From contig CAXBYZ010000002.1 of assembly GCA_963980215.1 (NCBI GenBank), positions 1,726 through 65,725 on the forward strand: a stretch of DNA of 64,000 nucleotides. The letters are read 5' to 3'. This document shows, piece after piece, positions 5,662-41,639 of the stretch; the stretch's first letter is position 1, and each line of letters starts with the position of its first letter. A program made the position numbers and the translations under genes. Source of the DNA: an uncultured bacterium (GTDB lineage: Bacteria; Patescibacteriota; Microgenomatia; UBA1400; CG1-02-47-37). The notes below the pieces were generated by a model. It made no database searches. It saw nothing but the letters and a program-made list of their open reading frames with translations, and was not told the DNA's origin.

Positions 5662-6373
5662 ATGCCCACTCAATTTCATGGGTTTTTGGATCAACTCCAT
5701 GATCACGAATCCAATTAGCTATTTCCTCTATTGAAACCTCTTCTTGTGTCAAAACCAAAACTTTAATTTTTTTTCTGCCAACATATTCAATCTTATAATT
5801 TAATGATTCATAGGGTAAAAAATTCACCAAAGGATAATTTTCTTTTTGAAAATTATCTAGTTGTTCCATCCCAATCGATCTCAATTTTTCTTCCCCAGTA
5901 GTAATTTGCCAAACATAAATCAACTGATCACCCTTATATACCATTACCTCATACCATTGACCGGATTTTAATATCTCAAGAGGATAAAAACTCACACTCA
6001 TCTCTCCCTTATTTATCAATGTTTCTCCCAAAATCACCGGATTTAATTGAATATTCATCTTATCTAAATCAATTAATTGATCAAACATCACTCGAATCAC
6101 ATCCAATTTTCTGTTAACTGTCTCATCAGCACTCGGTTCAGTTCTCATAATTTTTACGCTCTCGCCTCTTTTAATAGCCACCTGATCACTTAATATTTTC
6201 CCTAACTCTTCTTCCCTCAACACATCATTAAGTCTAAGCCCAAACATCGATTTCATCTCCCCTTTACTAACCATTTCTTGCTGTCGTTTAACCACCACTC
6301 CACCCACTACCAACAATAAACAACCAATACTAATCCCACCAATAACTAACAAAAATTTATAATCAAGTTTCAT
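5654..6373 (-). CDS. Membrane-anchored hypothetical protein
   Basis: One N-terminal TM helix (FLLVIGGISIGCLLLVVGGVVV) followed by a soluble domain. No motifs recognised. Confidence 0.35.
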   Translation of the reverse strand: MKLDYKFLLVIGGISIGCLLLVVGGVVVKRQQEMVSKGEMKSMFGLRLNDVLREEELGKILSDQVAIKRGESVKIMRTEPSADETVNRKLDVIRVMFDQLIDLDKMNIQLNPVILGETLINKGEMSVSFYPLEILKSGQWYEVMVYKGDQLIYVWQITTGEEKLRSIGMEQLDNFQKENYPLVNFLPYESLNYKIEYVGRKKIKVLVLTQEEVSIEEIANWIRDHGVDPKTHEIEWAFN

Positions 6374-7861: not shown

Positions 7862-7933
7862 GCTCTCATAGTTTAATGGATAAAACAGAGGTTTCCTAAA
7901 CCTCCGATGCAAGTTCGATTCTTGCTGGGGGCA
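7862..7933 (+). tRNA. tRNA-Arg (anticodon CCT)
   Basis: Hand-folded. Acceptor GCTCTCA/TGGGGGC (two G-U pairs), D-arm GTTT-AATGGATA-AAAC, anticodon arm GAGGT-TTCCTAA-ACCTC, a 4-nt variable loop, T-arm GCAAG-TTCGATT-CTTGC. No encoded CCA. Confidence 0.55.
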
Positions 7934-7938
7934 CATCT

Positions 7939-7963
7939 ACATGAAGGTTCGTAACCTTCATGT
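7939..7963. repeat. 25-bp perfect hairpin element ACATGAAGGTTCGTAACCTTCATGT in the spacer between the two tRNAs
   Basis: An identical 25-mer recurs at 24160-24184. Confidence 0.8.
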
Positions 7964-7968
7964 ACCAT

Positions 7969-8041
7969 CGGGGTGTAGCGCAGTTGGTAGCGCGCGTCGT
8001 TCGGGACGGCGAGGTCGTGAGTTCAAATCTCACCACCCCGA
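7969..8041 (+). tRNA. tRNA-Pro (anticodon CGG)
   Basis: Acceptor CGGGGTG/CACCCCG, D-arm GCGC-AGTTGGTA-GCGC, anticodon arm CGTCG-TTCGGGA-CGGCG, T-arm GTGAG-TTCAAAT-CTCAC, discriminator A. Confidence 0.75.
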
Positions 8042-18437: not shown

Positions 18438-19667
18438 ATGACACCAAAATCCTGGCAGCTAAAACTTTTCTACCTCATCTTATTTTTAATTCCTTCCAAT
18501 CTCGCCAAACACTTCATCCTCCCTTCATCCTACGTCTCCGGCATCTTAGTTGACTACCTCATCCCTACTATTTATCTCACTGATATTCTTATCCTCACCC
18601 TCCTTGTTTGTAACAAAGGACTGTCCTTTGTTACAGTTGTTAAATCAAGCTTTTTTGTTTTCTTGCTCTGCTTACTCCCCTCAATCATTTTCGCCTCCTC
18701 CCCAATTCCAGCTATCTACAAGTACTTAAAACTCATAGAGCTAGTCTTATTTTCCCTCTGGGTCAAACAAAATATTAATCTAAAAAAACATCTACAACCC
18801 ATTATTACTATCCTTACCCTCTCTACCCTCTTTCAATCTCTCCTAGCCTTAACTCAATGGTTCAAACAATCATCGCTTTTTGGTTACTATTTTTTGGGCG
18901 AACAACCCTTTACCTCAGCTTCAGTTGGTATTGATAAAATCACTTGGTTCACTGGCGCTATCAAAATCCCCCCTATGGGCACCTTCCCTCACCCCAATGT
19001 TTTAGGAGGCTTTTTAGCCGTAGTTTTACCGCTTATCCTCTATAAGGGTCTTAATTCCAACACAAGGTTACGAACCTTGTGTTACACCTCATTTTTGCTC
19101 GGTCTCCTCACCCTTTTTCTCACCTTCTCTCTCTCCGCTTGGTTAGCCTTTCTCTTAATCGGCCTTCCCCTCACCCTAAAGAAAATATTTAAGGTTCGGA
19201 ACCTTAAATTTATCTTTATCTACTCAGGGCTTTTCTTAATCCTCTTTTCTTTTGCTACCAAATTTACCTTTCTTGCTCCCCAAAGCTCCTTTAGCCGTCG
19301 TTCTCAACTAACCCAGATTGCTCTCAAATCTTTTACCCACTCACCCATTGTTGGTGTTGGCCTTAATAACTTTACCATTAACATGGAACACTACGGCTAC
19401 ATCACTTCCACTACTCGTTTTCTCCAACCCGTCCATAACATCTTTCTTTTAATCCTCTCCGAAACCGGCCTCATCGGCCTTGCTGGCTTTCTTTATCTTT
19501 TAGGTTCAAAACTTCAGCAATTGCGACTCCGACAAAAGTCGGAGCAAGTTTTGAACCTAAAAATATTCTTAATCCCTCTCCTCACCCTCCTCTTCCTCGG
19601 CCTCTTCGATCACTACCCTTTTACCATCCAACAAAGTTTATTGCTACTCTTTACCCTAATTAACTAA
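18438..19667 (+). CDS. Polytopic membrane protein, O-antigen ligase/polymerase (Wzy)-like
   Basis: About 10 predicted TM helices and a central loop, lying in a glycan locus. It carries four in-frame palindromic elements (18610, 19063, 19185, 19503). Confidence 0.4.
   Translation: MTPKSWQLKLFYLILFLIPSNLAKHFILPSSYVSGILVDYLIPTIYLTDILILTLLVCNKGLSFVTVVKSSFFVFLLCLLPSIIFASSPIPAIYKYLKLIELVLFSLWVKQNINLKKHLQPIITILTLSTLFQSLLALTQWFKQSSLFGYYFLGEQPFTSASVGIDKITWFTGAIKIPPMGTFPHPNVLGGFLAVVLPLILYKGLNSNTRLRTLCYTSFLLGLLTLFLTFSLSAWLAFLLIGLPLTLKKIFKVRNLKFIFIYSGLFLILFSFATKFTFLAPQSSFSRRSQLTQIALKSFTHSPIVGVGLNNFTINMEHYGYITSTTRFLQPVHNIFLLILSETGLIGLAGFLYLLGSKLQQLRLRQKSEQVLNLKIFLIPLLTLLFLGLFDHYPFTIQQSLLLLFTLIN
18610..18634. 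repeat. REP copy (GTAACAAAGGACTGTCCTTTGTTAC) in frame inside the Wzy-like gene
   Basis: Reverse-complement-centre version of the RAYT-flanking REP; it encodes CNKGLSFVT. Confidence 0.8.
19503..19557. repeat. 55-bp composite hairpin element inside the Wzy-like gene
   Basis: A copy of the 4769-4823 element with about 6 substitutions. Confidence 0.8.
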
Positions 19668-24122: not shown

Positions 24123-24159
24123 AAATATATTCTACTCCACCCGCATCAAAATTTCCACA

Positions 24160-24184
24160 TGAAGGTTCGTAACCTTCATGTAAG
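24160..24184. repeat. 25-bp hairpin element ACATGAAGGTTCGTAACCTTCATGT (second copy)
   Basis: Identical to 7939-7963; intergenic. Confidence 0.8.
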
Positions 24185-24244: not shown

Positions 24245-25675
24245 ATGAAAATAGTCATCGGCTACCCCCCCTTAGAATCCAAAAAAGGCACCGCCCTTCT
24301 TTCTCAAAATCGCCAGTTCCAGTGGTTTTCTTCTCCCACCTACATCTATCCCGTCATTCCCGCCTCAACAGCCACTCTTTTAGCAAAAAACGGTCACCAA
24401 GTTCTCTGGCTCGACGGCATTGCCGAAAACTGGACCTACCAACAATGGTTAAAACAACTCAAAGACTTCAAACCCGACCTTTTGTTCATGGAATCCAAAA
24501 CCCCAGTCATTAAGGCTCACTGGAAAATCATCAAAGATCTCAAACGCAAGGTTCCGAACCTTAAATGTGTCTTGGTCGGTGACCATGTTACCGCCTTACC
24601 CAAAGAGTCCTTCAAACACTCGCCCGTCGACTTTGTTATCTCTGGTGGCAACTACGACCTCGCTTTACTCGATCTCGTAACCAAACTCAAAAACAAAAAG
24701 AAAGTCACTCCAATCACTTATGCCCCTTCAAACTACAACCTCACCAAGCTTCCTTTCATCGATCGAAAGCTAACCAAGTGGCACCTCTACGCCTCCAAAA
24801 ACGGTAACTTCAAGTACTTCCCCGGTACCTACACTATGGCCGGTCGGGATTGCTGGTGGCGCCAAAATGGTGGCTGTACTTTTTGTTCCTGGACCACCTT
24901 GTATCCCCAATTTTCCTCCCGCACGCCAACAAATCTCCTAGACGAAATTGGTCAATTGATCAAGATTGGAGTCAAAGAAGTTTTTGACGACACCGGCACT
25001 TTTCCCATCGGTGATTGGTTAACCAAGTTTTGTCAAGGCATGGTCAAACTCGGCTACCACAAACAAATCACTTTCGGGTGCAACATGCGTTACGGAGTTT
25101 TAACCAAAAAAGACTATACATTAATGGCCAAAGCTAACTTTCGCTTCATCCTCTACGGCCTTGAATCGGTAAACCCCAAAACCATCAAACGTTTAAACAA
25201 AGGCACCAAGCCTTCAAAAATCAAAGCCGAGCTTGAAGTTATCAAGCAAGTAAATCAGGAATTAAAAGGTCATCTAGAACCCCACGTTACTTGCATGATT
25301 GGCTATCCATGGGAAAGCTATCAGGACGCCCAAAACACCGTCAACTACACTAAATCTCTCTTCAAAAAAGGCCTCATCGACTCTCTCCAAGCCACCATCT
25401 GCATTCCCTATCCAGGCACCAAACTCTACAGCCAATGTCAAAAAAATCACTGGCTCAAAACCACCAACTACAACCACTACGACATGCGTCAACCAATCAT
25501 GAAAACCAAGATAAAAAACCAAGACCTACTCAAACTCACCAGAAACATCTACACCTCCTGTCTCACTCCAAAGTTCATCCTAAAAAAACTTTTTTCTATC
25601 AGAAACTTCAACGACCTCAAATGGTTCTACAACGCTAGCTTTAAAGTCCTCGCTCACTTACTAGATTTTTCATGA
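24245..25675 (+). CDS. B12-binding-domain radical SAM protein
   Basis: An N-terminal cobalamin-binding-like Rossmann segment (VLWLDGIAE...KCVLVGDHVTALP) followed by a Cys cluster (CWWRQNGGCTFC) and a TIM-barrel-length remainder. The start is refined to the ATG at 24245. Confidence 0.5.
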   Translation: MKIVIGYPPLESKKGTALLSQNRQFQWFSSPTYIYPVIPASTATLLAKNGHQVLWLDGIAENWTYQQWLKQLKDFKPDLLFMESKTPVIKAHWKIIKDLKRKVPNLKCVLVGDHVTALPKESFKHSPVDFVISGGNYDLALLDLVTKLKNKKKVTPITYAPSNYNLTKLPFIDRKLTKWHLYASKNGNFKYFPGTYTMAGRDCWWRQNGGCTFCSWTTLYPQFSSRTPTNLLDEIGQLIKIGVKEVFDDTGTFPIGDWLTKFCQGMVKLGYHKQITFGCNMRYGVLTKKDYTLMAKANFRFILYGLESVNPKTIKRLNKGTKPSKIKAELEVIKQVNQELKGHLEPHVTCMIGYPWESYQDAQNTVNYTKSLFKKGLIDSLQATICIPYPGTKLYSQCQKNHWLKTTNYNHYDMRQPIMKTKIKNQDLLKLTRNIYTSCLTPKFILKKLFSIRNFNDLKWFYNASFKVLAHLLDFS

Positions 25676-26487
25676 CTCACTCCATTGCCACTATTATCAA
25701 TTTTTGTAGTAACGACAAACTTTTTATCCACCACACTATCAACCAAGTTAAAAAATTCTCAAGCCAAATAATTATTCCTTACTGCGACCACTTCTACGAC
25801 GGCACTCCTGAAGATCAAAGCTTAATCTCTAAAACCATTGCAAAACACCCCACAGTTAAATTCATCCCCTTTCAATACGACCCCAATGCCACCAAAACTT
25901 TATGGCGCGGTTGGCAATTTATCTTACGCCGCCTCACCAAAACCCAAGTCTGGGGACCCCAACACTGGATCTGTCATGCCCGTTTACTAGGAACTACTTA
26001 CCTCAAAAAAAACATCAAATACGTCCTCTTTTTAGACGCCGACGAAGTCCCCGATGGCAAACGCTTTAAAGGTTGGCTAGACACCAAAAACTACCAAAAA
26101 TATAATGCCATAAAGTCTGCTAATTACTGGTACTTTAGATCACCCAAACACCAAGCCACTACCTTTGAAGACTCAAGCTTATTAGTCAAAAGAACTTCTT
26201 TAACTCAAGCCGTCTTCATGGATCACGATGAACGAAACGCTACCTACAACTCCATCCCTCACCCCAAAAAAAGAATGGTTTTAGGTTTAGACAGTAAACC
26301 CATGATCCACCACTACGGCTGGGCTAAACCCAAAGCCAATCTCCTTAAAAAAGTCAAAACCTGGGGGCACTCCAAAGACCGAAATTGGACCAAGTTAATC
26401 GAAAAAGAGTTTCAAAAACCTTTCTCCGGCACAGACTTTATCTACCACCGTCGCTTCACCACCGTCAAACCTTTCCTTCACTTGTAA
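25672..26487 (+). CDS. Hypothetical protein, possibly a glycosyltransferase (DxD-like LFLDADE)
   Basis: Its stop codon lies inside the upstream REP. Confidence 0.3.
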   Translation: MTHSIATIINFCSNDKLFIHHTINQVKKFSSQIIIPYCDHFYDGTPEDQSLISKTIAKHPTVKFIPFQYDPNATKTLWRGWQFILRRLTKTQVWGPQHWICHARLLGTTYLKKNIKYVLFLDADEVPDGKRFKGWLDTKNYQKYNAIKSANYWYFRSPKHQATTFEDSSLLVKRTSLTQAVFMDHDERNATYNSIPHPKKRMVLGLDSKPMIHHYGWAKPKANLLKKVKTWGHSKDRNWTKLIEKEFQKPFSGTDFIYHRRFTTVKPFLHL

Positions 26488-26508
26488 CAAAGGACAGTCC
26501 TTTGTTAC
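26484..26508. repeat. REP, 25-bp perfect palindrome GTAACAAAGGACAGTCCTTTGTTAC (5' flank of the RAYT gene)
   Basis: It is identical to the copy at 27165-27189. It contains the stop codon of the upstream gene and ends 9 nt before the RAYT start codon. Confidence 0.85.
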
Positions 26509-26517
26509 AATAATAAT

Positions 26518-27168
26518 ATGCCTTCCAAAAACGAACTTAAACAATACCTAAAAAATGGTTACTATCATATATACAATCGTGGGGTTGATAAAAGAATCAT
26601 TTATAAAGATGAGCAAGACTACGGTGTCTTTTTAAACTTCCTAAAATATTACCTATCTTCCCTTCCAAAACTAAATCCACTTAGAAAAATAACAATTAGA
26701 GAAAGTAAAACGTATCAAATTAGCGATTACAAATGCAAAAACTATCACCAAGCCGTCACTTTACTCGCCTACTGCCTAATGCCCAACCACTTTCATTTAC
26801 TCATCAAACAAACTGAATCCAGAAATATTGAATCTTTCATGAAATCTATTGGCACCAGATACTCAATGTACTTTAACAAACGCTATCAAAGATCTGGCCA
26901 CCTCTTCCAGGGTAGATACAATGCCGTCTTGGTTGATTCCGACGAACAACTCATTCATCTTTCTCGCTACATTCATTTAAATCCCTCTCCAAATCTTTTT
27001 AAGCAGCCTTCTAGCTATCCTGATTATCTCAACCAAAAAAACACCCCATGGCTTCAGAAGCAAGATGTCACTCAACACTTCAAAAATTCACTTGCTTACA
27101 AAAAATTCGTCCAAACTCCCGACCAATCCGCCCTCTCAATCCTCTCCAAACTCACCCTAGATTCGTAA
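26518..27168 (+). CDS. REP-associated tyrosine transposase (RAYT / TnpA-REP, IS200-like HUH Y1 transposase)
   Basis: YHIYNRG, AYCLMPNHFHLL (the HuH motif) and RYSMYFNKRYQRSGHLFQGRYNAVLVDSDEQLIHLSRYIHLNP (catalytic Tyr region). It is collinear with E. coli RAYT motifs and flanked on both sides by the palindromic REP. Confidence 0.85.
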   Translation: MPSKNELKQYLKNGYYHIYNRGVDKRIIYKDEQDYGVFLNFLKYYLSSLPKLNPLRKITIRESKTYQISDYKCKNYHQAVTLLAYCLMPNHFHLLIKQTESRNIESFMKSIGTRYSMYFNKRYQRSGHLFQGRYNAVLVDSDEQLIHLSRYIHLNPSPNLFKQPSSYPDYLNQKNTPWLQKQDVTQHFKNSLAYKKFVQTPDQSALSILSKLTLDS

Positions 27169-27189
27169 CAAAGGACAGTCCTTTGTTAC
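27165..27189. repeat. REP, 25-bp palindrome (3' flank of the RAYT gene)
   Basis: Identical to 26484-26508; overlaps the RAYT stop codon. Confidence 0.85.
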
Positions 27190-28628
27190 ACTTTTATCAA
27201 ATATACCCTCATCATCTCGTCATTAAAACCAAAAATCGATAATAATTTCAACCACGGCCACAACAACACTCCTACAAAAACTTGCCCCACCCCTCTTCCT
27301 AGTTTAGCCGTGATGTTATGGAAAAAAACTTGATGCCAAACCAAACCTTTTCTAATCACCTTGTACCCCGCTTTATTTATCACCTTTAAAAACTCATCTT
27401 TCGTCCAAAAATTCACATGAGTCTTGTCCCAATAAGCAAGGTAATCTTTTTTCAACCACTTTTCTGACAAATTCCCGGTTAACGGCACTTCCAAAACCAA
27501 AACTCCACCTGGTTTCAACCATTTTTTAATCCGCTTCAACTGCTTGACCGGATCTTTAATATGTTCCAACACATGATACATACTTATTACCTCATATTTT
27601 CTATTTGCCTCATATGCTTCAATCTTTTCCCCTTTTTTCTCATCTATTCCCATCGCCTTGATTCCCCACTCATTAGCCATCTTTACCAACTTGCCATCCC
27701 CACACCCCAAATCCAACCACTGAATACTTTTTTTCTTTACCACTTGCCTAGCTTCTCTCAACCTCATCCTCACAAACACCTCCCCCATCAACCAATCCAA
27801 GCTCATCAACATCGCTTTTACACTCATCTTTAATCTTCCCGAAACCAAACTCACTCCAACCAACAATCCCCACCTCAACCATCTCTCTCCTCCTGAAAAA
27901 TTCTTTAAAACCGTCACCAATCGATTTCGTCGATAATAAAAGACCACCTCATCGCTAGCCACATTTTGATTAAAACTCAAAGACCCTTTGTGCTCAATCA
28001 CACTCTTCATCACCCCCACAGCCGACCCTCCTAACCTTTTTGCCCTCAACTGCAAATCTACATCTTCGTAAAAATACTTGTACCACTCGTCAAAACCACC
28101 AAGATCAAAAAACCACTCTTTATTCACCATCAAGCAAGTACCATTGGCATACTCTCCTCTGATTATCTCTCCAAACTGCCCCCTATCTTCCTGCCCTCTT
28201 CCTACCGCTACCCCAAATCCTGGCCACAAATACTTCCCCGCTACGCAATCAATTTTACTGCTTTTGTATGTCAAAATCTTTGGTTGCAACATCAACTTTT
28301 TATTTCCCTCAGCCTGACCCCACAACTCCTTTAACCAGCTTTTTTGGACCACCGTGTCTGAGTTCAAAAACACTAGCCACTCACCCTTTGCCTCTCTAGC
28401 CCCCAAGTTACTCCCCCCTGCAAAAAACTTATTTTCGCAACTCACCACTATCCGCACTTTTTTACTCCCCCCATATTTTTTCTTTAACAACCCCAAGCTC
28501 CCATCACTAGACCCATTCTCCACCACCACCACTTCAAAACTCACCTCCACACTCTTCAATACCGAATCGACACACTCCCTGATATATTTCTCGCCGTTAT
28601 AGTTAACTATGACTACGCTTATCTTCAT
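27186..28628 (-). CDS. Bifunctional GT2 glycosyltransferase / class I SAM-dependent methyltransferase
   Basis: An N-terminal GT2 signature (VVIVNYNGEKYIRECVDSV...VVVENGSSDGS) and a C-terminal methyltransferase motif I (WLDLGCGDGKLV) with post-I motifs. Confidence 0.55.
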   Translation of the reverse strand: MKISVVIVNYNGEKYIRECVDSVLKSVEVSFEVVVVENGSSDGSLGLLKKKYGGSKKVRIVVSCENKFFAGGSNLGAREAKGEWLVFLNSDTVVQKSWLKELWGQAEGNKKLMLQPKILTYKSSKIDCVAGKYLWPGFGVAVGRGQEDRGQFGEIIRGEYANGTCLMVNKEWFFDLGGFDEWYKYFYEDVDLQLRAKRLGGSAVGVMKSVIEHKGSLSFNQNVASDEVVFYYRRNRLVTVLKNFSGGERWLRWGLLVGVSLVSGRLKMSVKAMLMSLDWLMGEVFVRMRLREARQVVKKKSIQWLDLGCGDGKLVKMANEWGIKAMGIDEKKGEKIEAYEANRKYEVISMYHVLEHIKDPVKQLKRIKKWLKPGGVLVLEVPLTGNLSEKWLKKDYLAYWDKTHVNFWTKDEFLKVINKAGYKVIRKGLVWHQVFFHNITAKLGRGVGQVFVGVLLWPWLKLLSIFGFNDEMMRVYLIKV

Positions 28629-29350
28629 AATTTTCTTACCTTAATAGCTAAAGCAGCTCCGCTTTTTAATCTCATAAATTTTCTCTTCTCTACCTTAAAA
28701 GAAATTCCCAACTTATTCAACCACAAGCACTTATGCCACTCACCAATCGTCTTTGTATCCAAGTAATAATAACTATCTACCAACTTCAATCCGAACTTTT
28801 TCAACAAACTCACCCACTTTTCTCTCGAGTACAAATGATAGTGATTATATTTTTTATTAAACAAAAAGCCATATAATTTTCCCCAACCAATATATGAGAT
28901 TAACTGATCACTCGGCATGGTGGCTACCAATAAACCACCCGGCTTTAACACCCGGCTCACCTCTCTTAGCACTCTTTCCAACTTACTGATATGCTCCAAG
29001 ACACTATTACTAAACATCACCTCAAACTCACCGTCAGCAAATGGCATCTCTCCAGCATCAGCCAACACCACTTCTTTATACACCCCGCTCTTCCTGGCTT
29101 TCCTCACCATCCCTTCATCATTATCAAGCCCTGTAACAAAGGACTGTCCTTTGTTACACTTTCCACCAAACACTTCCTTAGCAATCTCACCCTCGCCACA
29201 CCCCAAATCAAGAACTTTTTTACCAATAAAGTCTTTCCCCCACTCTTGTTTCACCAGCCCCACCTCAATTTCTCTCCAAATATTTGTTACTTGATCAAAC
29301 TTCATATTAAAATGGTTTCCCGGTAATATATGCCAAAGCCTTCCCAGCAT
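28625..29350 (-). CDS. Class I SAM-dependent methyltransferase
   Basis: Motif I VLDLGCGEGEIAKEV, motif II (VVLADAGEMPF) and a motif III region. Confidence 0.6.
   Translation of the reverse strand: MLGRLWHILPGNHFNMKFDQVTNIWREIEVGLVKQEWGKDFIGKKVLDLGCGEGEIAKEVFGGKCNKGQSFVTGLDNDEGMVRKARKSGVYKEVVLADAGEMPFADGEFEVMFSNSVLEHISKLERVLREVSRVLKPGGLLVATMPSDQLISYIGWGKLYGFLFNKKYNHYHLYSREKWVSLLKKFGLKLVDSYYYLDTKTIGEWHKCLWLNKLGISFKVEKRKFMRLKSGAALAIKVRKL
29134..29158. repeat. REP copy in frame inside the methyltransferase gene 28625-29350
   Basis: Encodes CNKGQSFVT on the - strand. Confidence 0.8.
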
Positions 29351-31113: not shown

Positions 31114-31584
31114 ATGAAACGACTGCTCGTCTTACTAAGCTTCTTGACTCTAACTTCCCCCGTTTTTGCTTCCGGTTTTCAGCTTAAAAACATTGGTGGT
31201 TTAGATACAAAAGGCATGGCTTACACCGAATGGTGGTACTCCACCGAAAACCCTTCCCTGTCTGGTATTACTTCAGTTGGTGACTCAGTCTCTGTCACTA
31301 TCGACGGCACTGCTAGCTCTGCAACTGTAGATGCTTCCGGAAACTGGAGTTACAACCCTACTACTCTCACCGCCGGCGACCACACTGTTTCTATTACCGG
31401 CGGCGCTGGCTCCACTTCATTTACTCTTCATGTTGGCTCAAGTATTCCCAGCAATGTCTCTGCACCCACCGACTCTGACATGCCCGTAGCTGGAATCATT
31501 GACAACACCATCGGACTCTGGCTCATTGGTGGCTTGCTTCTAGTCACTGGCATCTTCGTCATTCCCAACAAAATCAACTCTTAA
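31114..31584 (+). CDS. Small surface protein with a signal peptide, a Gly/Ser/Thr-rich beta-domain and a C-terminal TM anchor
   Basis: The signal peptide MKRLLVLLSFLTLTSPVFA and a C-terminal GLWLIGGLLLVTGIFVIP anchor. Confidence 0.4.
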   Translation: MKRLLVLLSFLTLTSPVFASGFQLKNIGGLDTKGMAYTEWWYSTENPSLSGITSVGDSVSVTIDGTASSATVDASGNWSYNPTTLTAGDHTVSITGGAGSTSFTLHVGSSIPSNVSAPTDSDMPVAGIIDNTIGLWLIGGLLLVTGIFVIPNKINS

Positions 31585-32636
31585 ACCAACTCCTCAAACA
31601 TCTCCTCATAATTTTTAGCTATCCTCTCCCAACCAAACCTCTCCAACCACCTCTCTCTTTCCCGCCTCTGTGTAACAAAGGTCCGACCTTTGTTACAAGC
31701 CTGCTCCAATTTTTTTGAGTACTCCTCACCCCAAACATCTTTCACATAAATTCCAAACTCTCCCAACAACTCCCGACGAAGCTCATCATCAGTCACTACC
31801 ATTGGTAATCCACTTGCCAAGGCTTCCAAATTCACAATCCCAAACTCCTCTGTACTCTCTGATACCATCGTAAATACGTCACACGCTCTATACACCTGAT
31901 CCAAATCTTTGTACTCCACTTTCATTCTCAAAAACCTCTTACCTAATAATCGTTTCCCCAACTTCTCCATCTCATCACTCCCACCAACCAGCAACAAACT
32001 AGCTTCCTTAACTTTGACCATCGCTTTTATCGTCGCCTCCACTCGCTTATACCTATCCGGCCCAGCCACACACAAAACTACTGCCTTAGTCTCGCGACGA
32101 AGCTTTTCCAGAGATTCACTTTTCAACCTCTTTCCCTCCGGACTAAATCTTTTCAAATCCACTCCATGAGGAGCAATCTCAATCTTTACTCCCTTACTAT
32201 ATTTTCTAGCCCACTTAGCGTTTCGCTTGGTTGAAGCCACAAACACATCCGGTCGCATCAATAAGTTCCAGCGATCACACCAACCCAAACCAGCCAATCC
32301 CGGAATTACCAACTTTATCCCCGTTAACCAACTATACAATCGGCAAAGCAAACTCTGCCAACCCCCATTCACCGGAATTAAAAAATCTACCTCACCAACT
32401 TTTTTCAACGCTTTCACCGTAAACCAAAAAATCTTCAAGTGATAATAATCCAGCATCAACATTCTCCAACTATTCCCTTTAGTCATCTTTTCCCAATCTA
32501 CTTTCATTCCCAAACTCTCTGCACTTATCACCTGAACTTCATGTCTCTTTTTCCATTCTTGCTCCAACTCCCTCACCACCGTTTCCACTCCTCGGCTAAT
32601 CTGTCCGCTAGTAAAACTTAAAACCGCTATCTTCAT
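31581..32636 (-). CDS. GT4 (GT-B) glycosyltransferase
   Basis: The C-terminal E...FGIVNLEALASGLPMVVTD signature of GT4 enzymes. Confidence 0.65.
   Translation of the reverse strand: MKIAVLSFTSGQISRGVETVVRELEQEWKKRHEVQVISAESLGMKVDWEKMTKGNSWRMLMLDYYHLKIFWFTVKALKKVGEVDFLIPVNGGWQSLLCRLYSWLTGIKLVIPGLAGLGWCDRWNLLMRPDVFVASTKRNAKWARKYSKGVKIEIAPHGVDLKRFSPEGKRLKSESLEKLRRETKAVVLCVAGPDRYKRVEATIKAMVKVKEASLLLVGGSDEMEKLGKRLLGKRFLRMKVEYKDLDQVYRACDVFTMVSESTEEFGIVNLEALASGLPMVVTDDELRRELLGEFGIYVKDVWGEEYSKKLEQACNKGRTFVTQRRERERWLERFGWERIAKNYEEMFEELV
31672..31696. repeat. REP variant (GTAACAAAGGTCCGACCTTTGTTAC) in frame inside the GT4 gene
   Basis: Same arms, different centre; encodes CNKGRTFVT. Confidence 0.7.
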
Positions 32637-35610: not shown

Positions 35611-36342
35611 CTAATTCCTACTTATCTCATCTTTTAATAAACTTAAAAGCTCCGGCCGAATTTGTTGAATGGTTTTATTCAGCACACTCACTGGTAATAA
35701 TGGATTCAAGTCTTGGTTTAATACTTTATCGGTCACTCGCCTCTCCAGAAACTCAACCACTTTATCCAGGTACTTCACATAGCTCATCTTGGTAGAATTC
35801 TCAACTACAGCTTGATTCACTGGTAATCCATTCAAGAAAAAATACCATAGATCATAAAAATCTCTACCGGCTATTTTATTAGTTTTTTCAAATCTAGCTA
35901 AACTAGCCACCAACTTATTAGCCACCATAGTCCCTAATGTATGACCGGAACAGTACATATTAATTTCTTTCAAATGAATTTTCTCATAAGTATTTTTTAT
36001 ACTCGGTTTGTCGTTAATCTCTAATTTAATCGTATTCCTCTCACCAGCCTTTGCTTCATACCTTAAAAAAAACTGCAAGTATTTTTTACTCTCATCTTTA
36101 ATTTGAAAACCCAATTTATCAAATATCCGGTAGCAAGCCTGCCTCACCTGTTTCTTTTTACTTTTATCAGGCAGGTCAAAATCAAGATCAACAGAAAACC
36201 GATCCAACACTCCCCTCAAAGCCGCGTAGGTCCCTCCCTTAAACTGCAAACATAAACGCAAATCCTTATTGCAAAGTATCTCTCTTAGTAATCTCAACAT
36301 CACCAATTTATGTTGAGCATCTTTTGGTTGTGGCAAAATCAT
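35611..36342 (-). CDS. AbiEii-family nucleotidyltransferase (toxin of a type IV TA pair)
   Basis: LQFKGGTYAALRGVLDRFSVDLDFD, a nucleotidyltransferase motif; 4-nt overlap with the upstream AbiEi-like gene. Confidence 0.6.
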   Translation of the reverse strand: MILPQPKDAQHKLVMLRLLREILCNKDLRLCLQFKGGTYAALRGVLDRFSVDLDFDLPDKSKKKQVRQACYRIFDKLGFQIKDESKKYLQFFLRYEAKAGERNTIKLEINDKPSIKNTYEKIHLKEINMYCSGHTLGTMVANKLVASLARFEKTNKIAGRDFYDLWYFFLNGLPVNQAVVENSTKMSYVKYLDKVVEFLERRVTDKVLNQDLNPLLPVSVLNKTIQQIRPELLSLLKDEISRN

Positions 36343-36890
36343 AAATAACCTACCTCTCTCTGCATGGTTTTCAATTTATCTTTTCTGATAACTAATTGGT
36401 TATCCACATAGTAATTAGGGTTAGCCCTCAACAAATCTGCCAAAGCCCGCTCCCCACTCGCCACACTAAAAGTCTTACCATCATTAATCCCCGCCCGGTT
36501 CATTAAAAATCTTGGATTTAAATACCTACACAAAAAACTATTCCCACCTAGCTCAAACTCTTTGGCTTTCTGACCGAATAAAGTTATTTTATTCACCTGT
36601 TGCTGGATTATTCCCTCTTTAACTAAAATCGTCTCACCACTAATGTAGCTATGAGGCCCACTGACTGCACAACCCAACTCAAGCAGATCAAGCTTATTTA
36701 GGGGCAAGACGCTATACATGCCTCGCTGAACCGGATAAAGAATCTTTCGTTTTATATATCTTTGAATCGTCATCCACAAACTATTCTCATTCTCAATCTC
36801 CCACAACACTCCCAAATCCCCTGTTCTAAAGATTTTCTTCTCCTGCTCCAACAAAATCTTTTGATAGTTTGTATTTCTCTTATTATACAT
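36339..36890 (-). CDS. AbiEi-family antitoxin / transcriptional regulator
   Basis: An N-terminal wHTH with FRTGDL...RGMYSV (the AbiEi RGxY motif); operonic with the AbiEii-like gene. Confidence 0.55.
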   Translation of the reverse strand: MYNKRNTNYQKILLEQEKKIFRTGDLGVLWEIENENSLWMTIQRYIKRKILYPVQRGMYSVLPLNKLDLLELGCAVSGPHSYISGETILVKEGIIQQQVNKITLFGQKAKEFELGGNSFLCRYLNPRFLMNRAGINDGKTFSVASGERALADLLRANPNYYVDNQLVIRKDKLKTMQREVGYL

Positions 36891-37035
36891 ATAAGTATAT
36901 GATACGAAATACTTATCAAAATGTCAACCCACAACCTTCAACCCTATAGTCAGTCAAGGTTCGTAACCTTGAGTTCTTCCCCCTGACAGGGACTGTCCCT
37001 GTCAACCTACAAGGATCATCCTTGTAGGCTACAAT

Positions 37036-38042: not shown

Positions 38043-39054
38043 CCACTCCAGCAGTCACTGCCCCTCCAGCCACCGCATGTTGCCAATCCTCAAACCCTTG
38101 CTCACTACTCACTGCCGATTCCGGCAAGGGAATCGATCCATTACCCGCCAAACCTGTACCCTGATAACTCACTCCCAAATCTCCAGATATATCCAAACTA
38201 CCACTCACATTATTATTCCACCAATTACTAACTCCGTCTAAAAATGTATTCGCAGCCAACTGGGTATTTCTCGCCTCTTCCGCTGCTTTTTGTTCCGCCA
38301 ATAATCTCTGTTGAGCTACCGCCGCGGCTATCTCAGCCTGTGCGGTGGGATTGTTATCTGGACTTTGAGTGGTTGTGTATCTTGAAGTAGGTTTTTGATC
38401 TACCGCTTGGTTTTGAGCATAACCGGCCCATCTTTGAGCAGCTGCTTCGGCTACCCGATCCCGATTCTCTTCCTCTATCTGAACTCTATCGTCTTCTGAT
38501 AAATAACCGGATTGGTTTAGTCTATTGGTTGCTGCTTGAGCTGCCGCCGCGGCCGCTTCGGCTTCGGCTTTTTTTGCCTCCGCCACTACTCCTCCGGTAT
38601 CTACTGCTTCAGTCTTTGGAGTGGCCTTTGGGGTTGGCGTTGGATTTAACTCATTCTTTATCGAATCTTGAGCTTGTTGATCTAACATTCCCACCAACTC
38701 CTCCGAAACCGGACTTGTACTCGTAGTGGTCGAGGTGTTATTGGCTTCTCCATCTTCCGGATTTGCCCTCCTCTCCTCTCGTCTCTCTTTTAGAACTTGA
38801 GCAAAATCTTTTTCCACCTCTTCCTTACTCGCTTTTTTACCACTATTAGTTACTTGATCCCTTATCTTTTCTACTGTCTGATCATCAAAACCCGCCTTCT
38901 CCGCGATTCTAGCAAACCCCCGATTATCAAAACTTAAATTAGGATCAGTCACGTACTTAACTGTGGGAATCATCAAACCCACTAAGGCCACTAAAACCAC
39001 TACCGGTAAAAAAGCAAATCCTCCCGATCTTCGACTGGGCAGTTGAGTATTCAT
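37972..39054 (-). CDS. N-terminal segment of the surface protein: TM anchor plus Ala/Glu/Gln-rich coiled-coil
   Basis: An N-terminal TM (FAFLPVVVLVALVGLMIP) and a low-complexity charged, alanine-rich helical region. It ends just past the G8 tract. Confidence 0.45.
   Translation of the reverse strand: MNTQLPSRRSGGFAFLPVVVLVALVGLMIPTVKYVTDPNLSFDNRGFARIAEKAGFDDQTVEKIRDQVTNSGKKASKEEVEKDFAQVLKERREERRANPEDGEANNTSTTTSTSPVSEELVGMLDQQAQDSIKNELNPTPTPKATPKTEAVDTGGVVAEAKKAEAEAAAAAAQAATNRLNQSGYLSEDDRVQIEEENRDRVAEAAAQRWAGYAQNQAVDQKPTSRYTTTQSPDNNPTAQAEIAAAVAQQRLLAEQKAAEEARNTQLAANTFLDGVSNWWNNNVSGSLDISGDLGVSYQGTGLAGNGSIPLPESAVSSEQGFEDWQHAVAGGAVTAGVVGGGGLWRGSFRICKVNDVGKYC
38034..38041. repeat. Homopolymeric C8 tract (G8 on the coding strand) at the junction of two overlapping ORFs
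   Basis: Read directly from the sequence. With G8 the 360-aa frame runs on to the stop at 37972; with G7 it would join the 188-aa frame. Confidence 0.8.
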
Positions 39055-39713
39055 TCAATAATCTCCCCTTTAAGTTTACTCGCTTCCTGCTTAAAAAAAT
39101 CTACCAATTTTTCCTTATCCAAACTCTTCATCAAAATCGGATCATCCAAAAACTCGCCTACTCGACTCAACTGAGTCCCTAGCTGCAAACTATCAACATG
39201 CCAGTCAAACTTAATCTTTGCTAACTTTCTCAAATCGTCTATTCGATTATCAAGTTTTTCTAATATAAAAAACAAATCATAGTAATCTCTACCCCTTGGA
39301 TTTTGACTAATTGTGAATAACTTATCCACTCCAATATCCAATAAACTGTTAACCTTTAATCCGCCTTTACTCAAACCCGCCCCAATTCTTTTAAAGGGAA
39401 AATAAGTAAACTCTACTTTAAGAAAATCTTCTTTACCAAACCTCAACAAAAAAATATTCCGATTAAAACTAATCTGCAGATCTATTGTCTTATAGCCAAT
39501 TTTTTCCTTATTTTGCTTCAGCCAAGCACTAATCATTGAGGGCTCAAATTCATCTTCACAAAAAAAATCCAAATCCTCTGAAAATCTATGTTTTAAGTAA
39601 TACAAAGACAATGCCGTTCCACCAGTAAAGTAAAACTGATCAGCTAATTTAGAATCTGCTAGTAGTTTTAAAAACTTTTTTTGTCTTTTAACTACCTTTA
39701 ATTGCTTGACCAT
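39051..39713 (-). CDS. AbiEii-family nucleotidyltransferase
   Basis: FYFTGGTALSLYYLKHRFSEDLDFF. Confidence 0.55.
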   Translation of the reverse strand: MVKQLKVVKRQKKFLKLLADSKLADQFYFTGGTALSLYYLKHRFSEDLDFFCEDEFEPSMISAWLKQNKEKIGYKTIDLQISFNRNIFLLRFGKEDFLKVEFTYFPFKRIGAGLSKGGLKVNSLLDIGVDKLFTISQNPRGRDYYDLFFILEKLDNRIDDLRKLAKIKFDWHVDSLQLGTQLSRVGEFLDDPILMKSLDKEKLVDFFKQEASKLKGEIIE

Positions 39714-39919: not shown

Positions 39920-40654
39920 TTGACCCTAATGAAACTCGTCTCCATCATCATCCCTGCTTTCAAGCAGGAAAAGACTATCTTAAAAGATTTAAAGCGCATC
40001 GAAAAATCTCTAAAATCTATTAGATACCCTTACGAAATTATCGTGGTTATCGACGGAGCCATCGACCAAACCTATCGTAAAATAAAAAAACTAGCTAACC
40101 CTCAACTCAAAGTTTACCTTCTCAAAAAAAACTTAGGCAAAGGCTACGCCGTTCGCTTCGGCATGACCAAAGCTAAAGGCGACTATATTGCTTTTCTAGA
40201 CGCCGGCATGGAGATAGACCCCAACGCCATCTCCATGTTACTTGAACATCTCGAGTGGTACCACGCCGATATCGTGGTCGGCAGTAAACGCCACCTAGCC
40301 TCAAAAGTCTTTTATCCCTGGGACCGAAAGATTCTTTCATGGGGTTACTACCAACTCGTCCGCCTCCTTTTTGGGGTCAAAATTAGAGACACCCAATCCG
40401 GCATCAAGGTTTTTAAACGAAAAGTCTTAACCACTATCTTACCCAAACTGGTGGTCAAAAAATACGCCTTCGACATCGAGATCTTAGCCGTAGCCCACCG
40501 CTTAGGTTTTAAAAAAATCTACGAAGCCCCCATCAAGCTCAAGTATCACTTTGGCTCAGTCACCGACGCCGCTACCATAAACACTATTTATCACATGCTA
40601 ATAGACACACTCGCCGTCTGGTACCGATTAAAAATCTTAAAGTTTTATGACTAG
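39920..40654 (+). CDS. GT2 glycosyltransferase (dolichyl-phosphate mannose synthase-like)
   Basis: VSIIIPAFKQEKTILKDL, DGAIDQT and a DxD (FLDAGME). Confidence 0.65.
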   Translation: MTLMKLVSIIIPAFKQEKTILKDLKRIEKSLKSIRYPYEIIVVIDGAIDQTYRKIKKLANPQLKVYLLKKNLGKGYAVRFGMTKAKGDYIAFLDAGMEIDPNAISMLLEHLEWYHADIVVGSKRHLASKVFYPWDRKILSWGYYQLVRLLFGVKIRDTQSGIKVFKRKVLTTILPKLVVKKYAFDIEILAVAHRLGFKKIYEAPIKLKYHFGSVTDAATINTIYHMLIDTLAVWYRLKILKFYD

Positions 40655-41639
40655 TCAAGGAAAGGGTTCCGAACTTCAAAGTAATAGGGTTCCGAACCTC
40701 CAGCGGTCTGCAGCGTCAGCGAAAGACGGTTCGGAACCTTCAACGTTTGCCATCATCATCCCCTGTAAATCCCTAAAAGACCTTTGCCCCGAGCTCCTCC
40801 CGGCCCTAAAAACCCAATCTCTCCCTCCCGCCAAAATCATTATCATTCCTGACTCCCTTAACCATGTTAACAAAGGAGACTCCTTTGTTAAAGTTTTACC
40901 CAAGGCTGGCGACCCCGCCACCAAGCGCGACTATGCTGTTAAACACCTCAAGAAAACAGTAGGAACGGTTCCTACTGTTTTAGCCTTTATCGACTCGGAT
41001 GCCTACCCGGATAAAAACTGGCTTAAGAATGCTACTAAACACTTGAAACCAAAAAACATCGCCGCCGTCTGCGGGCCGGGCCTCACCCCACCCCAAAACT
41101 CCAAACTTCAAAAACTCTCCGGCCTCATTTGGTCCAGCTTTATTGGCGCTGGCCCTTACCGCTTCCGAAACCGCCCTTTAAAACCCCGCTTCGTCGACGA
41201 CTACCCCACCTTCAACCTCCTCGTCAAAACCAAAGACTTTCAAAAAATCGGTGGCTTTGACACCAAGTACTGGCCCGGTGAAGACACCAAGCTTTGCCTC
41301 GATCTCACCCACCAACTCCATAAAAAAATTCTCTATCACCCATCTATCATCGTCTTTCATCATCGCCGTCCCCTTTGGCTCCCTCACCTTCAGCAACTCT
41401 CCCGCTACGGCTTTCAACGCGGTCGATTTGTTAAACTTTTCCCCCAAACCTCCCGTCGCTTCTCTTACTTTTTACCCCTGCTATTTCTTCTCTCCCTACC
41501 CCTAACTTGGCCTTTCTATCTCGCCACTATCTTACTCACCGGCATCTATCATCAATCCCTTCTCCTGCCCCAAGCCCTACTCTTAACCCACCTCACCTAC
41601 GCTATCTACTTTCTCAAAGGCCTTCTAACAAACTCTTGA
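40647..41639 (+). CDS. GT2-like glycosyltransferase with C-terminal TM helices; its N-terminus is built from tandem hairpin elements
   Basis: FAIIIPC start motif, FIDSDAYP (DxD) and WPGEDTKLC. The first ~35 codons are three GGTTCCGAACC-type elements (40667-40747). It also contains a REP variant (40866). Confidence 0.5.
   Translation: MTSQGKGSELQSNRVPNLQRSAASAKDGSEPSTFAIIIPCKSLKDLCPELLPALKTQSLPPAKIIIIPDSLNHVNKGDSFVKVLPKAGDPATKRDYAVKHLKKTVGTVPTVLAFIDSDAYPDKNWLKNATKHLKPKNIAAVCGPGLTPPQNSKLQKLSGLIWSSFIGAGPYRFRNRPLKPRFVDDYPTFNLLVKTKDFQKIGGFDTKYWPGEDTKLCLDLTHQLHKKILYHPSIIVFHHRRPLWLPHLQQLSRYGFQRGRFVKLFPQTSRRFSYFLPLLFLLSLPLTWPFYLATILLTGIYHQSLLLPQALLLTHLTYAIYFLKGLLTNS
40866..40890. repeat. REP variant (GTTAACAAAGGAGACTCCTTTGTTAA) in frame inside the GT2 gene 40647-41639
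   Basis: Encodes VNKGDSFVK. Confidence 0.6.

What the first reader, a model, noticed from the sequence alone, without database searches (positions are those of the whole stretch)
26484..27189. RAYT gene flanked by identical 25-bp palindromic REPs, with further REP copies inserted in frame inside glycan-biosynthesis genes
The ORF at 26518-27168 carries the full HUH-Y1 signature of REP-associated tyrosine transposases (YHIYNRG, LMPNHFHLL, the RY..FN.RY.RSGHLFQGRY...RYIHLNP block). It is bracketed by two identical perfect palindromes, GTAACAAAGGACAGTCCTTTGTTAC, at 26484-26508 and 27165-27189. Each overlaps a stop codon. This is the canonical REP-RAYT-REP arrangement. Four more copies or variants (18610, 29134, 31672, 40866) lie inside ORFs of the glycosylation locus. 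Each keeps the reading frame and encodes CNKGxSFVT, and because the element is palindromic it gives the same peptide on either strand. Intragenic, frame-preserving REP insertions recall Rickettsia palindromic elements. They are not the usual picture for REP/RAYT systems, and they imply either recent mobility or a tolerated-insertion lifestyle.
Basis: partly seen in the sequence, partly recalled or inferred. Interest (0 to 1): 0.8.

Follow-up and report, generated by a model that had tools for sequence, protein, structure and literature searches.

The report
Hairpin repeats and their transposase-like gene
A tiny uncultured bacterium (Patescibacteria, Microgenomates) keeps one transposase-like gene bracketed by two copies of a 25-27 base hairpin repeat, and further copies of that repeat sit inside working genes, always read in the same frame; this is a compact, mostly intragenic version of the known REP/RAYT systems.

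Summary
Six copies of AACAAAGG-N5-CCTTTGTT lie in the window where none is expected by chance. Two of them bracket an HUH/Y1 gene at 26518-27168, and four lie in frame inside Wzy, methyltransferase, GT4 and GT2 genes.

The REP/RAYT reading is largely supported:
- Pfam Y1_Tnp passes its cut-off.
- The HUH histidines and the tyrosine are invariant in 32 homologues.
- The best structural match is the E. coli RAYT-REP complex (4ER8).
- All nine orthologues or homologues examined (100-52% identity) carry a hairpin at both gene ends, and its sequence changes with the lineage.

The intragenic copies are real insertions. About half of 55 methyltransferase orthologues, and most Wzy orthologues, lack them.

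Three corrections apply:
- There is no sign of recent mobility. Twelve strain-level contigs are invariant, and four sites are orthologous in a species that differs by 20-30% in DNA.
- This family is one of several intragenic palindrome families in the lineage.
- Intragenic REPs are already described in other bacteria (Di Nocera 2013).

Two features stand out. Every one of at least 15 independent insertions uses the self-symmetric frame x[N/Y]KGx[S/T]FVx. The gene also sits in surface-glycan loci in most of the lineages examined. Genome-wide copy number could not be measured.

Verdict: a new variant of a known kind, of moderate interest.

The parts
26482..26510 (.). Left REP copy (core 26484-26508; the palindrome extends to 29 nt, TTGTAAC...GTTACAA). 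It supplies the TAA stop of ORF 25672-26487. It ends 8 nt before the RAYT ATG (10 nt for the 25-nt core). With its flank it reads as a sigma-70-like promoter, TTGTAA-N18-(TG)TACAAT.
   Evidence: (DNA hairpin -11.7 kcal/mol, z -6.2)
26518..27168 (+). RAYT-like HUH/Y1 gene of 216 aa. It carries YHIYNRG, the HUH motif (H91, H93), Y151 in RYIHLNP, and a C-terminal extension absent from the E. coli RAYT.
27165..27189 (.). Right REP copy. Its two arms supply TAA stops to both convergent genes: RAYT at 27166-27168 and GT2-methyltransferase 27186-28628 at 27186-27188. It is followed by a TTTT run and scores as terminator-like on the + strand.
18609..18635 (.). REP copy in frame in the Wzy_C / O-antigen-ligase-like gene 18438-19667 (+), encoding CNKGLSFVT in the loop after the first conserved transmembrane segment. 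Most orthologues lack it.
29132..29158 (.). REP copy in frame in the class I SAM methyltransferase 28625-29350 (-), encoding CNKGQSFVT. It forms the loop between helix A and strand beta2, and its last two residues start beta2.
31671..31697 (.). REP copy (centre tccga) in frame near the C-terminus of GT4 glycosyltransferase 31581-32636 (-), encoding CNKGRTFVT. The site is orthologous in L014-L016.
40867..40891 (.). Variant REP copy (TTAAC...GTTAA type, the form that dominates in related species) in frame in GT2 glycosyltransferase 40647-41639 (+), encoding VNKGDSFVK.

Best explanation
This is a REP-RAYT system of a Microgenomates (order UBA1400-like) patescibacterium.

A single, vertically inherited HUH/Y1 nuclease gene of RAYT type is bracketed by two copies of its cognate 21-27-nt hairpin. 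Over evolutionary time, copies of that hairpin have been placed at other sites in a genome with very little intergenic DNA. The copies that survive are of two kinds:
- Copies at gene ends, where the GTAAC/TTAAC arm supplies a TAA stop.
- Copies inside tolerant loops of proteins, read in the one self-symmetric frame, which gives a turn-plus-strand peptide x[N/Y]KGx[S/T]FVx.

Once fixed, copies persist for a very long time and their cores stay invariant, while the host gene adjusts around them by small flanking deletions.

What is shown:
- The association of the gene with the hairpins, and the co-variation of the hairpin with the protein lineage.
- An intact catalytic motif.
- The insertion status of the intragenic copies, their exclusive use of one frame, their long persistence, and the conservation of the core.

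What is inferred:
- That the RAYT binds the hairpin on single-stranded DNA and nicks or joins next to it, as the E. coli RAYT and IS608/ISDra2 TnpA do, and so disperses or maintains the copies.
- That the left copy doubles as the RAYT promoter (probably for a leaderless mRNA) and the right copy as its terminator.
- That frame exclusivity reflects selection on the encoded peptide.
For: The protein:
- Pfam Y1_Tnp scores 49 bits against a cut-off of 23.
- It is closer to NCBIfam REP_Tyr_transpos (50 bits) than to IS200 (14 bits).
- H91, H93 and Y151 are invariant in 32 homologues.
- The AF2 model has pLDDT 82, and its top PDB match is 4ER8, the E. coli RAYT bound to a REP hairpin (E 6.5e-5), ahead of the ISDra2 and IS608 TnpA structures.

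The arrangement:
- Seven orthologues (100-55% identity) all carry ACAAAGG-N5-CC(T/C)TTGT just upstream of the ATG and at or just after the stop.
- Two homologues at 52% identity are flanked on both sides by different hairpins: GCAGGGG-TAA-CCCC.. in L026 and TGTCAAGG-ATTCT-CCTTGACA in L027.

Single copy and vertical inheritance:
- There is one RAYT per locus.
- The exact protein always occurs in the same context across many samples.
- Orthologues are syntenic: PaaX, radical SAM, [271-aa ORF], RAYT, methyltransferase/GT genes.

Insertion status:
- The LeuRS of L019 carries the element as +8 aa against L020 and the window.
- About 27 of 55 methyltransferase orthologues have the short loop VFG[KR][KQ][IL]EW, and about 20 carry the element in at least 5 configurations.
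- A rough tree needs 12 or more state changes to explain that pattern.
- Most Wzy orthologues lack the element.
- Some methyltransferases carry 2-3 copies at other sites.

Frame:
- All independent sites use the symmetric frame, and no genuine frame-b peptide was found.

Constraint:
- Cores are 100% identical at four orthologous sites against a 65-85% nucleotide background.
- No decayed copies exist in the window.

Hairpin stability:
- The DNA hairpins fold at -9 to -11.7 kcal/mol, z -4.5 to -7.

Tolerance by the host protein:
- In the methyltransferase model (pLDDT 90.7) the insert is the loop from helix A to beta2.
Against: - No transposition event was caught. There is no polymorphism among 12 strain-level contigs, so current activity is unproven.
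- Only 6 copies lie in about 72 kb, all within 22 kb of the RAYT.
- Whole-collection scans returned only this locus, apart from one unrelated match in a Clostridia genome. The high genome-wide copy number typical of REP/REPIN populations is therefore not shown.
- The copies are singlets, not REPIN doublets, and they lack the GTAG/CGTC tags.
- The protein is below NCBIfam's equivalog cut-off.
- Complementarity runs right up to a 1-nt centre in all six window copies. A hairpin does not need that, and it is unexplained.
- Net length changes at filled versus empty sites are not a clean 25 or 27 nt. The commonest methyltransferase form is +18 nt, so the insertion junctions and the target rule remain unknown.
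- At least ten other palindrome families occupy ORFs in this lineage with no second RAYT in the window.
Confidence: 0.65

Rival explanations
1. The palindromes are host regulatory elements, and the HUH protein is a domesticated hairpin-binding factor rather than a mobiliser. Under this reading the hairpins act as promoter, terminator, mRNA-stability or protein-binding sites that control a surface-glycan locus, and they are kept by selection for that role.
For: - The cores are invariant against a 65-85% nucleotide background, and no decayed copies exist.
- The position relative to the RAYT start and stop is fixed in all orthologues.
- The left copy reads as TTGTAA-N18-TGnTACAAT ending 7 nt before the ATG, and the right copy is terminator-like.
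- The RAYT lies in glycan loci in the window, L014-L021 and L026.
- All window copies lie within 22 kb of it.
- No strain-level mobility is seen.
Against: - Copies also sit in LeuRS, ComEA and other unrelated genes in relatives.
- Their presence is patchy among close orthologues, with several configurations in one loop. That is the pattern of an inserting element, not of a conserved operator.
- Intragenic copies lack the flank that creates the -10-like box (and direct reading).
- One homologue, L027, is not in a glycan locus.
Confidence: 0.17
2. The palindromes arise locally through a mutational process, such as template switching or hairpin-primed repair on the persistently single-stranded strand of a genome with extreme G/C strand disparity. 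Their proximity to the RAYT would then be incidental.
For: - The window has 21 perfect palindromes against about 1.8 expected, in many sequence families with a shared shape, N6-9-GG-N5-CC-N6-9.
- Many are perfect right up to a 1-nt centre.
- The window has a GC skew of about -0.4, a lineage trait of UBA1400 (PMC7143001).
- Net gains at some sites are roughly one arm plus the loop, for example +5 aa for HTGSEPVC in LeuRS.
Against: - Identical 16-21-nt cores occur in unrelated genes and in different species, which local templating cannot give.
- The same core flanks the RAYT on both sides in seven orthologues, and the hairpin changes with the RAYT lineage.
Confidence: 0.08
3. The element is a functional peptide motif selected at the protein level, that is, an ancestral conserved CNKGxSFVT segment.
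For: The same peptide recurs in several enzymes, and in the window methyltransferase its last residues form the start of beta2.
Against: - Most orthologues lack it.
- All synonymous positions in the core are invariant while the flanks diverge.
- The same DNA occurs outside ORFs and in a stop-giving frame at gene ends.
Confidence: 0.02

Closest known systems
REP/RAYT (REPtron) systems of Proteobacteria: E. coli TnpA_REP (yafM, PDB 4ER8) and Pseudomonas REPIN-RAYT
   Same: - A single-copy, vertically inherited HUH/Y1 gene bracketed by its own short palindromic repeat.
- The repeat recurs elsewhere in the genome.
- The repeat sequence differs between RAYT lineages.
- Repeat ends can supply stop codons.
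- Copies persist for a long time at orthologous sites.
   Different: - The host is a patescibacterium.
- The protein is 216 aa with an extra C-terminal region, shares about 14% identity with 4ER8, and scores below the NCBIfam RAYT cut-off.
- The repeats are 21-27-nt near-perfect palindromes that occur as singlets, with no REPIN doublets and no GTAG/CGTC tag.
- Most copies are inside ORFs.
- Only a few copies are seen, clustered near the gene.
- High genome-wide copy number is not shown.
Intragenic REPs (Opitutus terrae GTAG repeats; Rickettsia conorii CGTC repeats = RPE-4/RPE-6) and the longer Rickettsia palindromic elements (RPE-1)
   Same: Palindromic repeats inserted in frame in genes that appear functional, probably in loops. 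Housekeeping genes are among the targets.
   Different: - Here the unit is a single 9-codon hairpin. Intragenic REPs elsewhere are often dimers of 20-30 aa, and RPE-1 elements are longer palindromic insertions (my recollection: roughly 100-150 bp).
- All insertions use one self-symmetric frame.
- A cognate RAYT is present next to two copies.
- The same protein loops were hit repeatedly in different lineages.
IS200/IS605 insertion sequences (IS608, ISDra2)
   Same: An HUH/Y1 fold, with hairpins close to both ends of the gene. The whole unit of about 706 bp is IS200-sized.
   Different: - The gene is single-copy and syntenic across species, so it does not move.
- It scores 14 bits against the NCBIfam IS200 cut-off of 55.
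- Both end hairpins are the same perfect palindrome, rather than distinct imperfect left and right ends.

Membership tests
RAYT (REP-associated tyrosine transposase, HUH/Y1) | HUH motif and catalytic tyrosine present | tested here: met
   LMPNHFHLL (H91, H93) and RYIHLNP (Y151) are invariant in 32 homologues.
RAYT (REP-associated tyrosine transposase, HUH/Y1) | Matches the Y1 transposase profile (PF01797) above its curated cut-off | tested here: met
   49 bits against 23.
RAYT (REP-associated tyrosine transposase, HUH/Y1) | Reaches the NCBIfam NF047646 REP_Tyr_transpos equivalog cut-off | tested here: not met
   50.3 bits against a cut-off of 80. It is still the best NCBIfam hit, ahead of IS200 at 14 bits.
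RAYT (REP-associated tyrosine transposase, HUH/Y1) | Fold of TnpA_REP | tested here: met
   The AF2 model has pLDDT 82. The top Foldseek PDB hit is 4ER8, E 6.5e-5, probability 1.0, TM (target-normalised) 0.61.
RAYT (REP-associated tyrosine transposase, HUH/Y1) | Gene flanked by palindromic repeats that recur elsewhere in the genome | tested here: met
   Identical copies lie at both ends, with 4 more in the window. The arrangement is conserved in 9 loci, and the hairpin sequence changes with lineage.
RAYT (REP-associated tyrosine transposase, HUH/Y1) | Single copy per genome, vertically inherited | tested here: inconclusive
   There is one copy in the 64-kb window and one per related locus. The context is the same in all samples, and orthologues are syntenic. 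The rest of the genome was not available.
RAYT (REP-associated tyrosine transposase, HUH/Y1) | Binds and cleaves its REP as single-stranded DNA | not testable with these tools
   This needs biochemistry.
REP / REPIN repeats | Short palindromic sequence (20-40 nt) able to form a stable hairpin | tested here: met
   12-nt arms, DNA hairpin -9 to -11.7 kcal/mol, z -4.5 to -7.
REP / REPIN repeats | Predominantly extragenic | tested here: not met
   4 of 6 copies in the window are inside ORFs, and the other 2 overlap stop codons.
REP / REPIN repeats | Strongly over-represented genome-wide (tens to hundreds of copies) | tested here: inconclusive
   6 copies in about 72 kb against 0 expected, all within 22 kb of the RAYT. 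The genome and metagenome scans returned only this locus (plus one unrelated match in a Clostridia genome).
REP / REPIN repeats | Organised as inverted doublets (REPINs) | tested here: not met
   All copies are singlets.
REP / REPIN repeats | GTAG or CGTC terminal tag (Di Nocera superfamilies) | tested here: not met
   The ends are (T)GTAAC, TTTAAC or GTTTAC.
Rickettsia palindromic elements (RPE) | In-frame insertion in functional ORFs | tested here: met
Rickettsia palindromic elements (RPE) | Element length of roughly 100-150 bp (this figure is from my recollection of Ogata et al. 2000 and was not read here), with sequence relatedness to RPE families | tested here: not met
   The unit is 21-27 nt. 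No similarity to RPE sequences was tested directly.
IS200/IS605 insertion sequence | The transposase gene itself is multicopy and mobile | tested here: not met
   Single copy, at the same syntenic position across species. The NCBIfam IS200 score is 14 bits against 55.

The most novel reading that the evidence does not exclude
The repeats may be more than tolerated selfish DNA. Under this reading they are portable, frame-neutral and orientation-neutral joints. Every copy uses the one codon partition that is symmetric about the centre. Recombination between any two copies, by deletion, inversion or allele exchange, would therefore keep both reading frames open. Such recombination could be catalysed by the RAYT or by host recombination acting on 21-27 bp of identity. 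The RAYT-plus-repeat set embedded in surface-glycan loci would then be a device for shuffling segments of glycosyltransferase, methyltransferase and Wzy genes, and so for varying the cell surface.
Probability: 0.06. Interest if true: 0.85.

Novelty: new variant of a known kind. Interest (0 to 1): 0.55.

Why it matters
REP/RAYT systems have been studied almost entirely in Proteobacteria, where the repeats live in intergenic DNA, and what they do there is still debated. Here the same partnership survives in an ultra-small genome with almost no intergenic space. It does so by living inside genes, in a single reading frame, for very long periods, with the host proteins adapting around the insert.

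This gives a compact natural data set for three questions:
- What constrains such elements (frame, loop tolerance, core conservation).
- How proteins absorb insertions.
- Whether the HUH protein serves the element, the host, or both.

There is also a practical point for annotators of Patescibacteria. Short perfect palindromes inside ORFs, and contig breaks at them, are a lineage feature rather than an assembly error.

Tried and rejected
- Whole-collection scans for the core. Genome contigs gave one unrelated hit in a Clostridia genome. Metagenome contigs gave four contigs, all of which map onto this window.
- Extending the window ends gained only about 8 kb, with no further copies.
- An apparent rearrangement between L014 and L015 around the RAYT turned out to be runs of N (scaffold gaps) at the repeats.
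- A search for flip of the centre base, or for presence/absence variation, among 12 strain-level contigs found none.
- A test for mosaic structure, meaning steps in identity at the repeats between the window and L015, found none.
- Two frame-b candidates (TKDNPLL, TKDHPLL) in Wzy homologues align to a native conserved Wzy motif and are not repeats.
- Plain sequence and profile searches of the PDB with the RAYT gave only marginal ISDra2 hits. The fold search was needed to place the protein.
- The scan of viral contigs returned 31 singletons, which is about what I would expect by chance on a rough estimate of the collection's size.
- Rfam found nothing at the repeats.
It was redone with database homologues.
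- A weak RAYT-like ORF at 39360-39536 (14 bits, HUH not preserved) was judged to be noise.
- The GT4 of L020 is not orthologous (23% identity), so it gives no empty-site comparison for the GT4 copy.
Full report
**1. The observation**

The 25-mer GTAACAAAGGACAGTCCTTTGTTAC lies at 26484-26508 and again at 27165-27189. With the centre left free, the pattern GTAACAAAGG-N5-CCTTTGTTAC also occurs at 18610, 29133 and 31672. A two-mismatch variant, TTAACAAAGGAGACTCCTTTGTTAA, lies at 40867. None was found in 100 dinucleotide-preserving shuffles.

A looser scan allowing up to 4 mismatches in the 16-nt core finds only perfect cores or background noise. There is no tail of decayed copies. As single-stranded DNA the element folds into a 12-bp hairpin of -9 to -11.7 kcal/mol.

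The left copy supplies the TAA stop of ORF 25672-26487. The right copy supplies the TAA of the RAYT ORF and, on the other strand, the TAA of the convergent GT2-methyltransferase gene 27186-28628.

The other four copies lie inside ORFs with clear Pfam identities:
- Wzy_C 18438-19667 (+), encoding CNKGLSFVT.
- A class I methyltransferase 28625-29350 (-), encoding CNKGQSFVT.
- GT4 31581-32636 (-), encoding CNKGRTFVT.
- GT2 40647-41639 (+), encoding VNKGDSFVK.

**2. The gene**

ORF 26518-27168 passes Pfam Y1_Tnp with 49 bits against a cut-off of 23. Its best NCBIfam model is REP_Tyr_transpos, but at 50 bits it is below the equivalog cut-off of 80. IS200 scores only 14 bits.

In an alignment of 32 homologues, the HUH histidines (H91, H93) and the tyrosine of RYIHLNP (Y151) are invariant. 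An AlphaFold model has pLDDT 82. Its best PDB match is 4ER8, the E. coli RAYT bound to a REP hairpin, followed by the ISDra2 and IS608 transposases.

Homologues are very numerous. The named ones among the best hits are Patescibacteria: Beckwith-, Curtiss- and Woesebacteria.

**3. The gene-repeat partnership is old and specific**

The exact protein is found in dozens of samples, always in the same genomic context. Orthologues at 75%, 68%, 65% and 63% identity are syntenic. The order is PaaX-like regulator, radical-SAM enzyme, [a 271-aa ORF in some], RAYT, then methyltransferase and glycosyltransferase genes.

Orthologues at 55-56% identity, and a homologue at 52%, again lie among glycan-synthesis genes. 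One homologue does not.

All seven orthologues down to 55% identity have ACAAAGG-N5-CC(T/C)TTGT just upstream of the ATG and at or just after the stop. The two 52% homologues are flanked on both sides by different hairpins of their own.

A profile of the family finds a single RAYT in the window and one in each locus. This is the defining behaviour of RAYTs as set out by Bertels et al. (PMC5581495): single copy, vertical inheritance, flanking repeats.

**4. The intragenic copies are insertions, but not recent ones**

*Persistence.*
- Twelve contigs of the same organism from different samples (about 99.9% identity) show no change at any copy.
- In the species represented by L014-L016, the flanking copies, the methyltransferase copy and the GT4 copy are at orthologous positions. 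Background nucleotide identity between that species and the window is 65-85%.
- The 16-nt cores are nevertheless identical, including every synonymous position. The core is therefore under constraint at the nucleotide level, or is repeatedly homogenised.

*Insertion status.*
- L019 LeuRS carries the element as eight extra residues where L020 and the window have none.
- L014's GT2 carries it where the window does not.
- Of 55 methyltransferase orthologues, about 27 have a short loop VFG[KR][KQ][IL]EW before GLDND. About 20 carry the element there, in at least five configurations. A few carry other inserts.
- A rough neighbour-joining tree needs at least 12 state changes to explain that distribution. 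This means repeated insertion or allele exchange at a hot loop.
- Some orthologues carry two or three copies at other sites in the same small protein.
- Most Wzy orthologues have a short loop where the window and a few others carry the element, at differing positions within the loop.

*Adaptation of the host protein.*
- At codon level, the empty site reads VFGRK-IEWGLD.
- The window reads VFGGK-[27 nt]-GLD, L018 reads LF-[27 nt]-LEWGLD, and L014 reads I-[27 nt]-GLD.
- Native codons next to the insert were therefore lost in a lineage-specific way.
- In the AF2 model of the window enzyme (pLDDT 90.7), the insert forms the loop between helix A and strand beta2, and its last two residues start beta2.
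- The window protein is 3-5 residues longer than solved methyltransferases at that loop.

**5. Frame**

The element has three frames: x[N/Y]KGx[S/T]FVx, VTKDSPLL-like, and one with a stop. The first is symmetric about the centre base, so both strands give the same peptide with the same codon boundaries.

Every independent intragenic site uses it. These sites are:
- Four in the window.
- Further sites in GT2, ComEA, LeuRS and a 140-aa ORF in relatives.
- Several sites in methyltransferases and Wzy proteins.

No genuine frame-b case was found. Two candidates proved to be a native Wzy motif. With at least 15 sites and two open frames, this is far from chance. The stop-giving frame is seen only at gene ends. 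I read this as selection on the peptide (a turn followed by a short strand), but a mechanistic cause is not excluded.

**6. Context that changes the picture**

The window has 21 perfect palindromes (arms of at least 9 nt) against about 1.8 expected. They fall into several families with a shared shape, N6-9-GG-N5-CC-N6-9. Most are inside ORFs, including ArgRS and LeuRS. Related loci have the same or similar families. Variable loops of LeuRS hold different palindromes in different species.

So the family in the finding is the one tied to the RAYT, but it belongs to a wider lineage habit. That wider habit is not explained here.

The window also has an extreme strand disparity, G 12.4% against C 28.7%. 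This is a published trait of order UBA1400 (PMC7143001), and it places the organism in or near that order.

Intragenic REPs, and REP ends that act as stop codons, are documented for Opitutus and Rickettsia (intragenic REPs) and more generally for GTAG REPs (stop codons) (PMC3733652). I found no paper on RAYTs in Patescibacteria in the library searched.

**7. Mechanism**

The best-supported account is given under Best explanation. Three steps in it remain inferences:
- Catalysis by the RAYT on the single-stranded hairpin.
- The promoter role of the left copy (TTGTAA-N18-TGnTACAAT ending 7 nt before the ATG) and the terminator role of the right copy.
- The reason for frame exclusivity.

Three observations remain unexplained:
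- Complementarity runs up to a single centre base.
- Filled and empty sites do not differ by a clean unit length.
- All copies seen lie within 22 kb of the RAYT.

**8. Verdict**

It is a new variant of a known kind for four reasons: the new phylum-level host, the minimal singlet hairpins, the mostly intragenic location with one exclusive frame, and the recurring placement of the gene within glycan loci.

Interest is 0.55.

Noticed in passing
window 1-64000: There is an extreme and uniform strand disparity: G 12.4% against C 28.7%, GC skew about -0.4, whatever the gene orientation. Related loci L019-L021 show -0.2 to -0.3. This matches the published trait of order UBA1400 Microgenomatia (Kadnikov et al. 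2020, PMC7143001), so it is already known. It does place the organism taxonomically.
   Followed up: partly
window 5003, 7938, 19059, 19187, 21240, 24157, 36984, 37006, 40953, 45564, 48027, 53155, 54032: Fifteen further perfect palindromes (21 in all against about 1.8 expected) belong to other sequence families with a common shape, N6-9-GG-N5-CC-N6-9. Most are in frame inside ORFs, including ArgRS (21240) and LeuRS (53155, 54032). The Wzy gene holds three palindromes and the GT2 at 40647 holds two. No second RAYT is present in the window to account for them.
   Followed up: partly
window 5003-5029 and 54032-54056: Two copies of one family (ACA[T]ACTGGTTCNGAACCAGT[A]TGT) lie in unrelated genes on opposite strands. 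Both encode HTGSEPVC. In LeuRS this is +5 aa relative to the orthologues in L019 and L020.
   Followed up: partly
window 26229-26454: There is a SNP cluster among strain-level contigs: 6 of about 25 variable positions in roughly 20 kb fall in the 230 bp just upstream of the left repeat, in linked groups. This could be a recombination tract that ends at the repeat.
   Followed up: no
L014 about 5029-5130 and L015 about 5733-5834: Scaffold gaps (runs of N) sit exactly at the repeats flanking the RAYT in two independent assemblies. Assemblers break at these 27-nt hairpins. The cause might be a coverage drop, or population heterogeneity there.
   Followed up: partly
L015 5030-5067: A half-site duplication lies next to the left repeat: TGTAACAAAGG followed directly by the full TGTAACAAAGGACGATCCTTTGTTACA.
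   Followed up: no
window 7938-7964 and 24157-24181: The same palindrome, ACATGAAGGTTCGTAACCTTCATGT, occurs twice in intergenic DNA. One copy sits exactly between two tRNA genes (7862-7933 and 7969-8041). The other is upstream of the radical-SAM gene.
   Followed up: no
proteins P0173, P0176, P0180, P0126, P0129, P0131 (methyltransferase orthologues): The methyltransferase loop that holds the repeat carries other, unrelated inserts in other lineages: PRTSRRRV twice in tandem, and KSFGKLRI. This loop is a general hot spot for short insertions.
   Followed up: no
window 36984-37004 and 37006-37028: Two different perfect palindromes lie back to back in the intergenic gap next to the AbiEii-type toxin-antitoxin-like pair of genes (35611-36890).
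   Followed up: no
window 39360-39536 (+): A 59-aa ORF, antisense to ORF 39051-39713, gives a weak match (14 bits) to the RAYT profile around the HUH region, but the histidines are not preserved. It is probably noise, or possibly a relic.
   Followed up: partly
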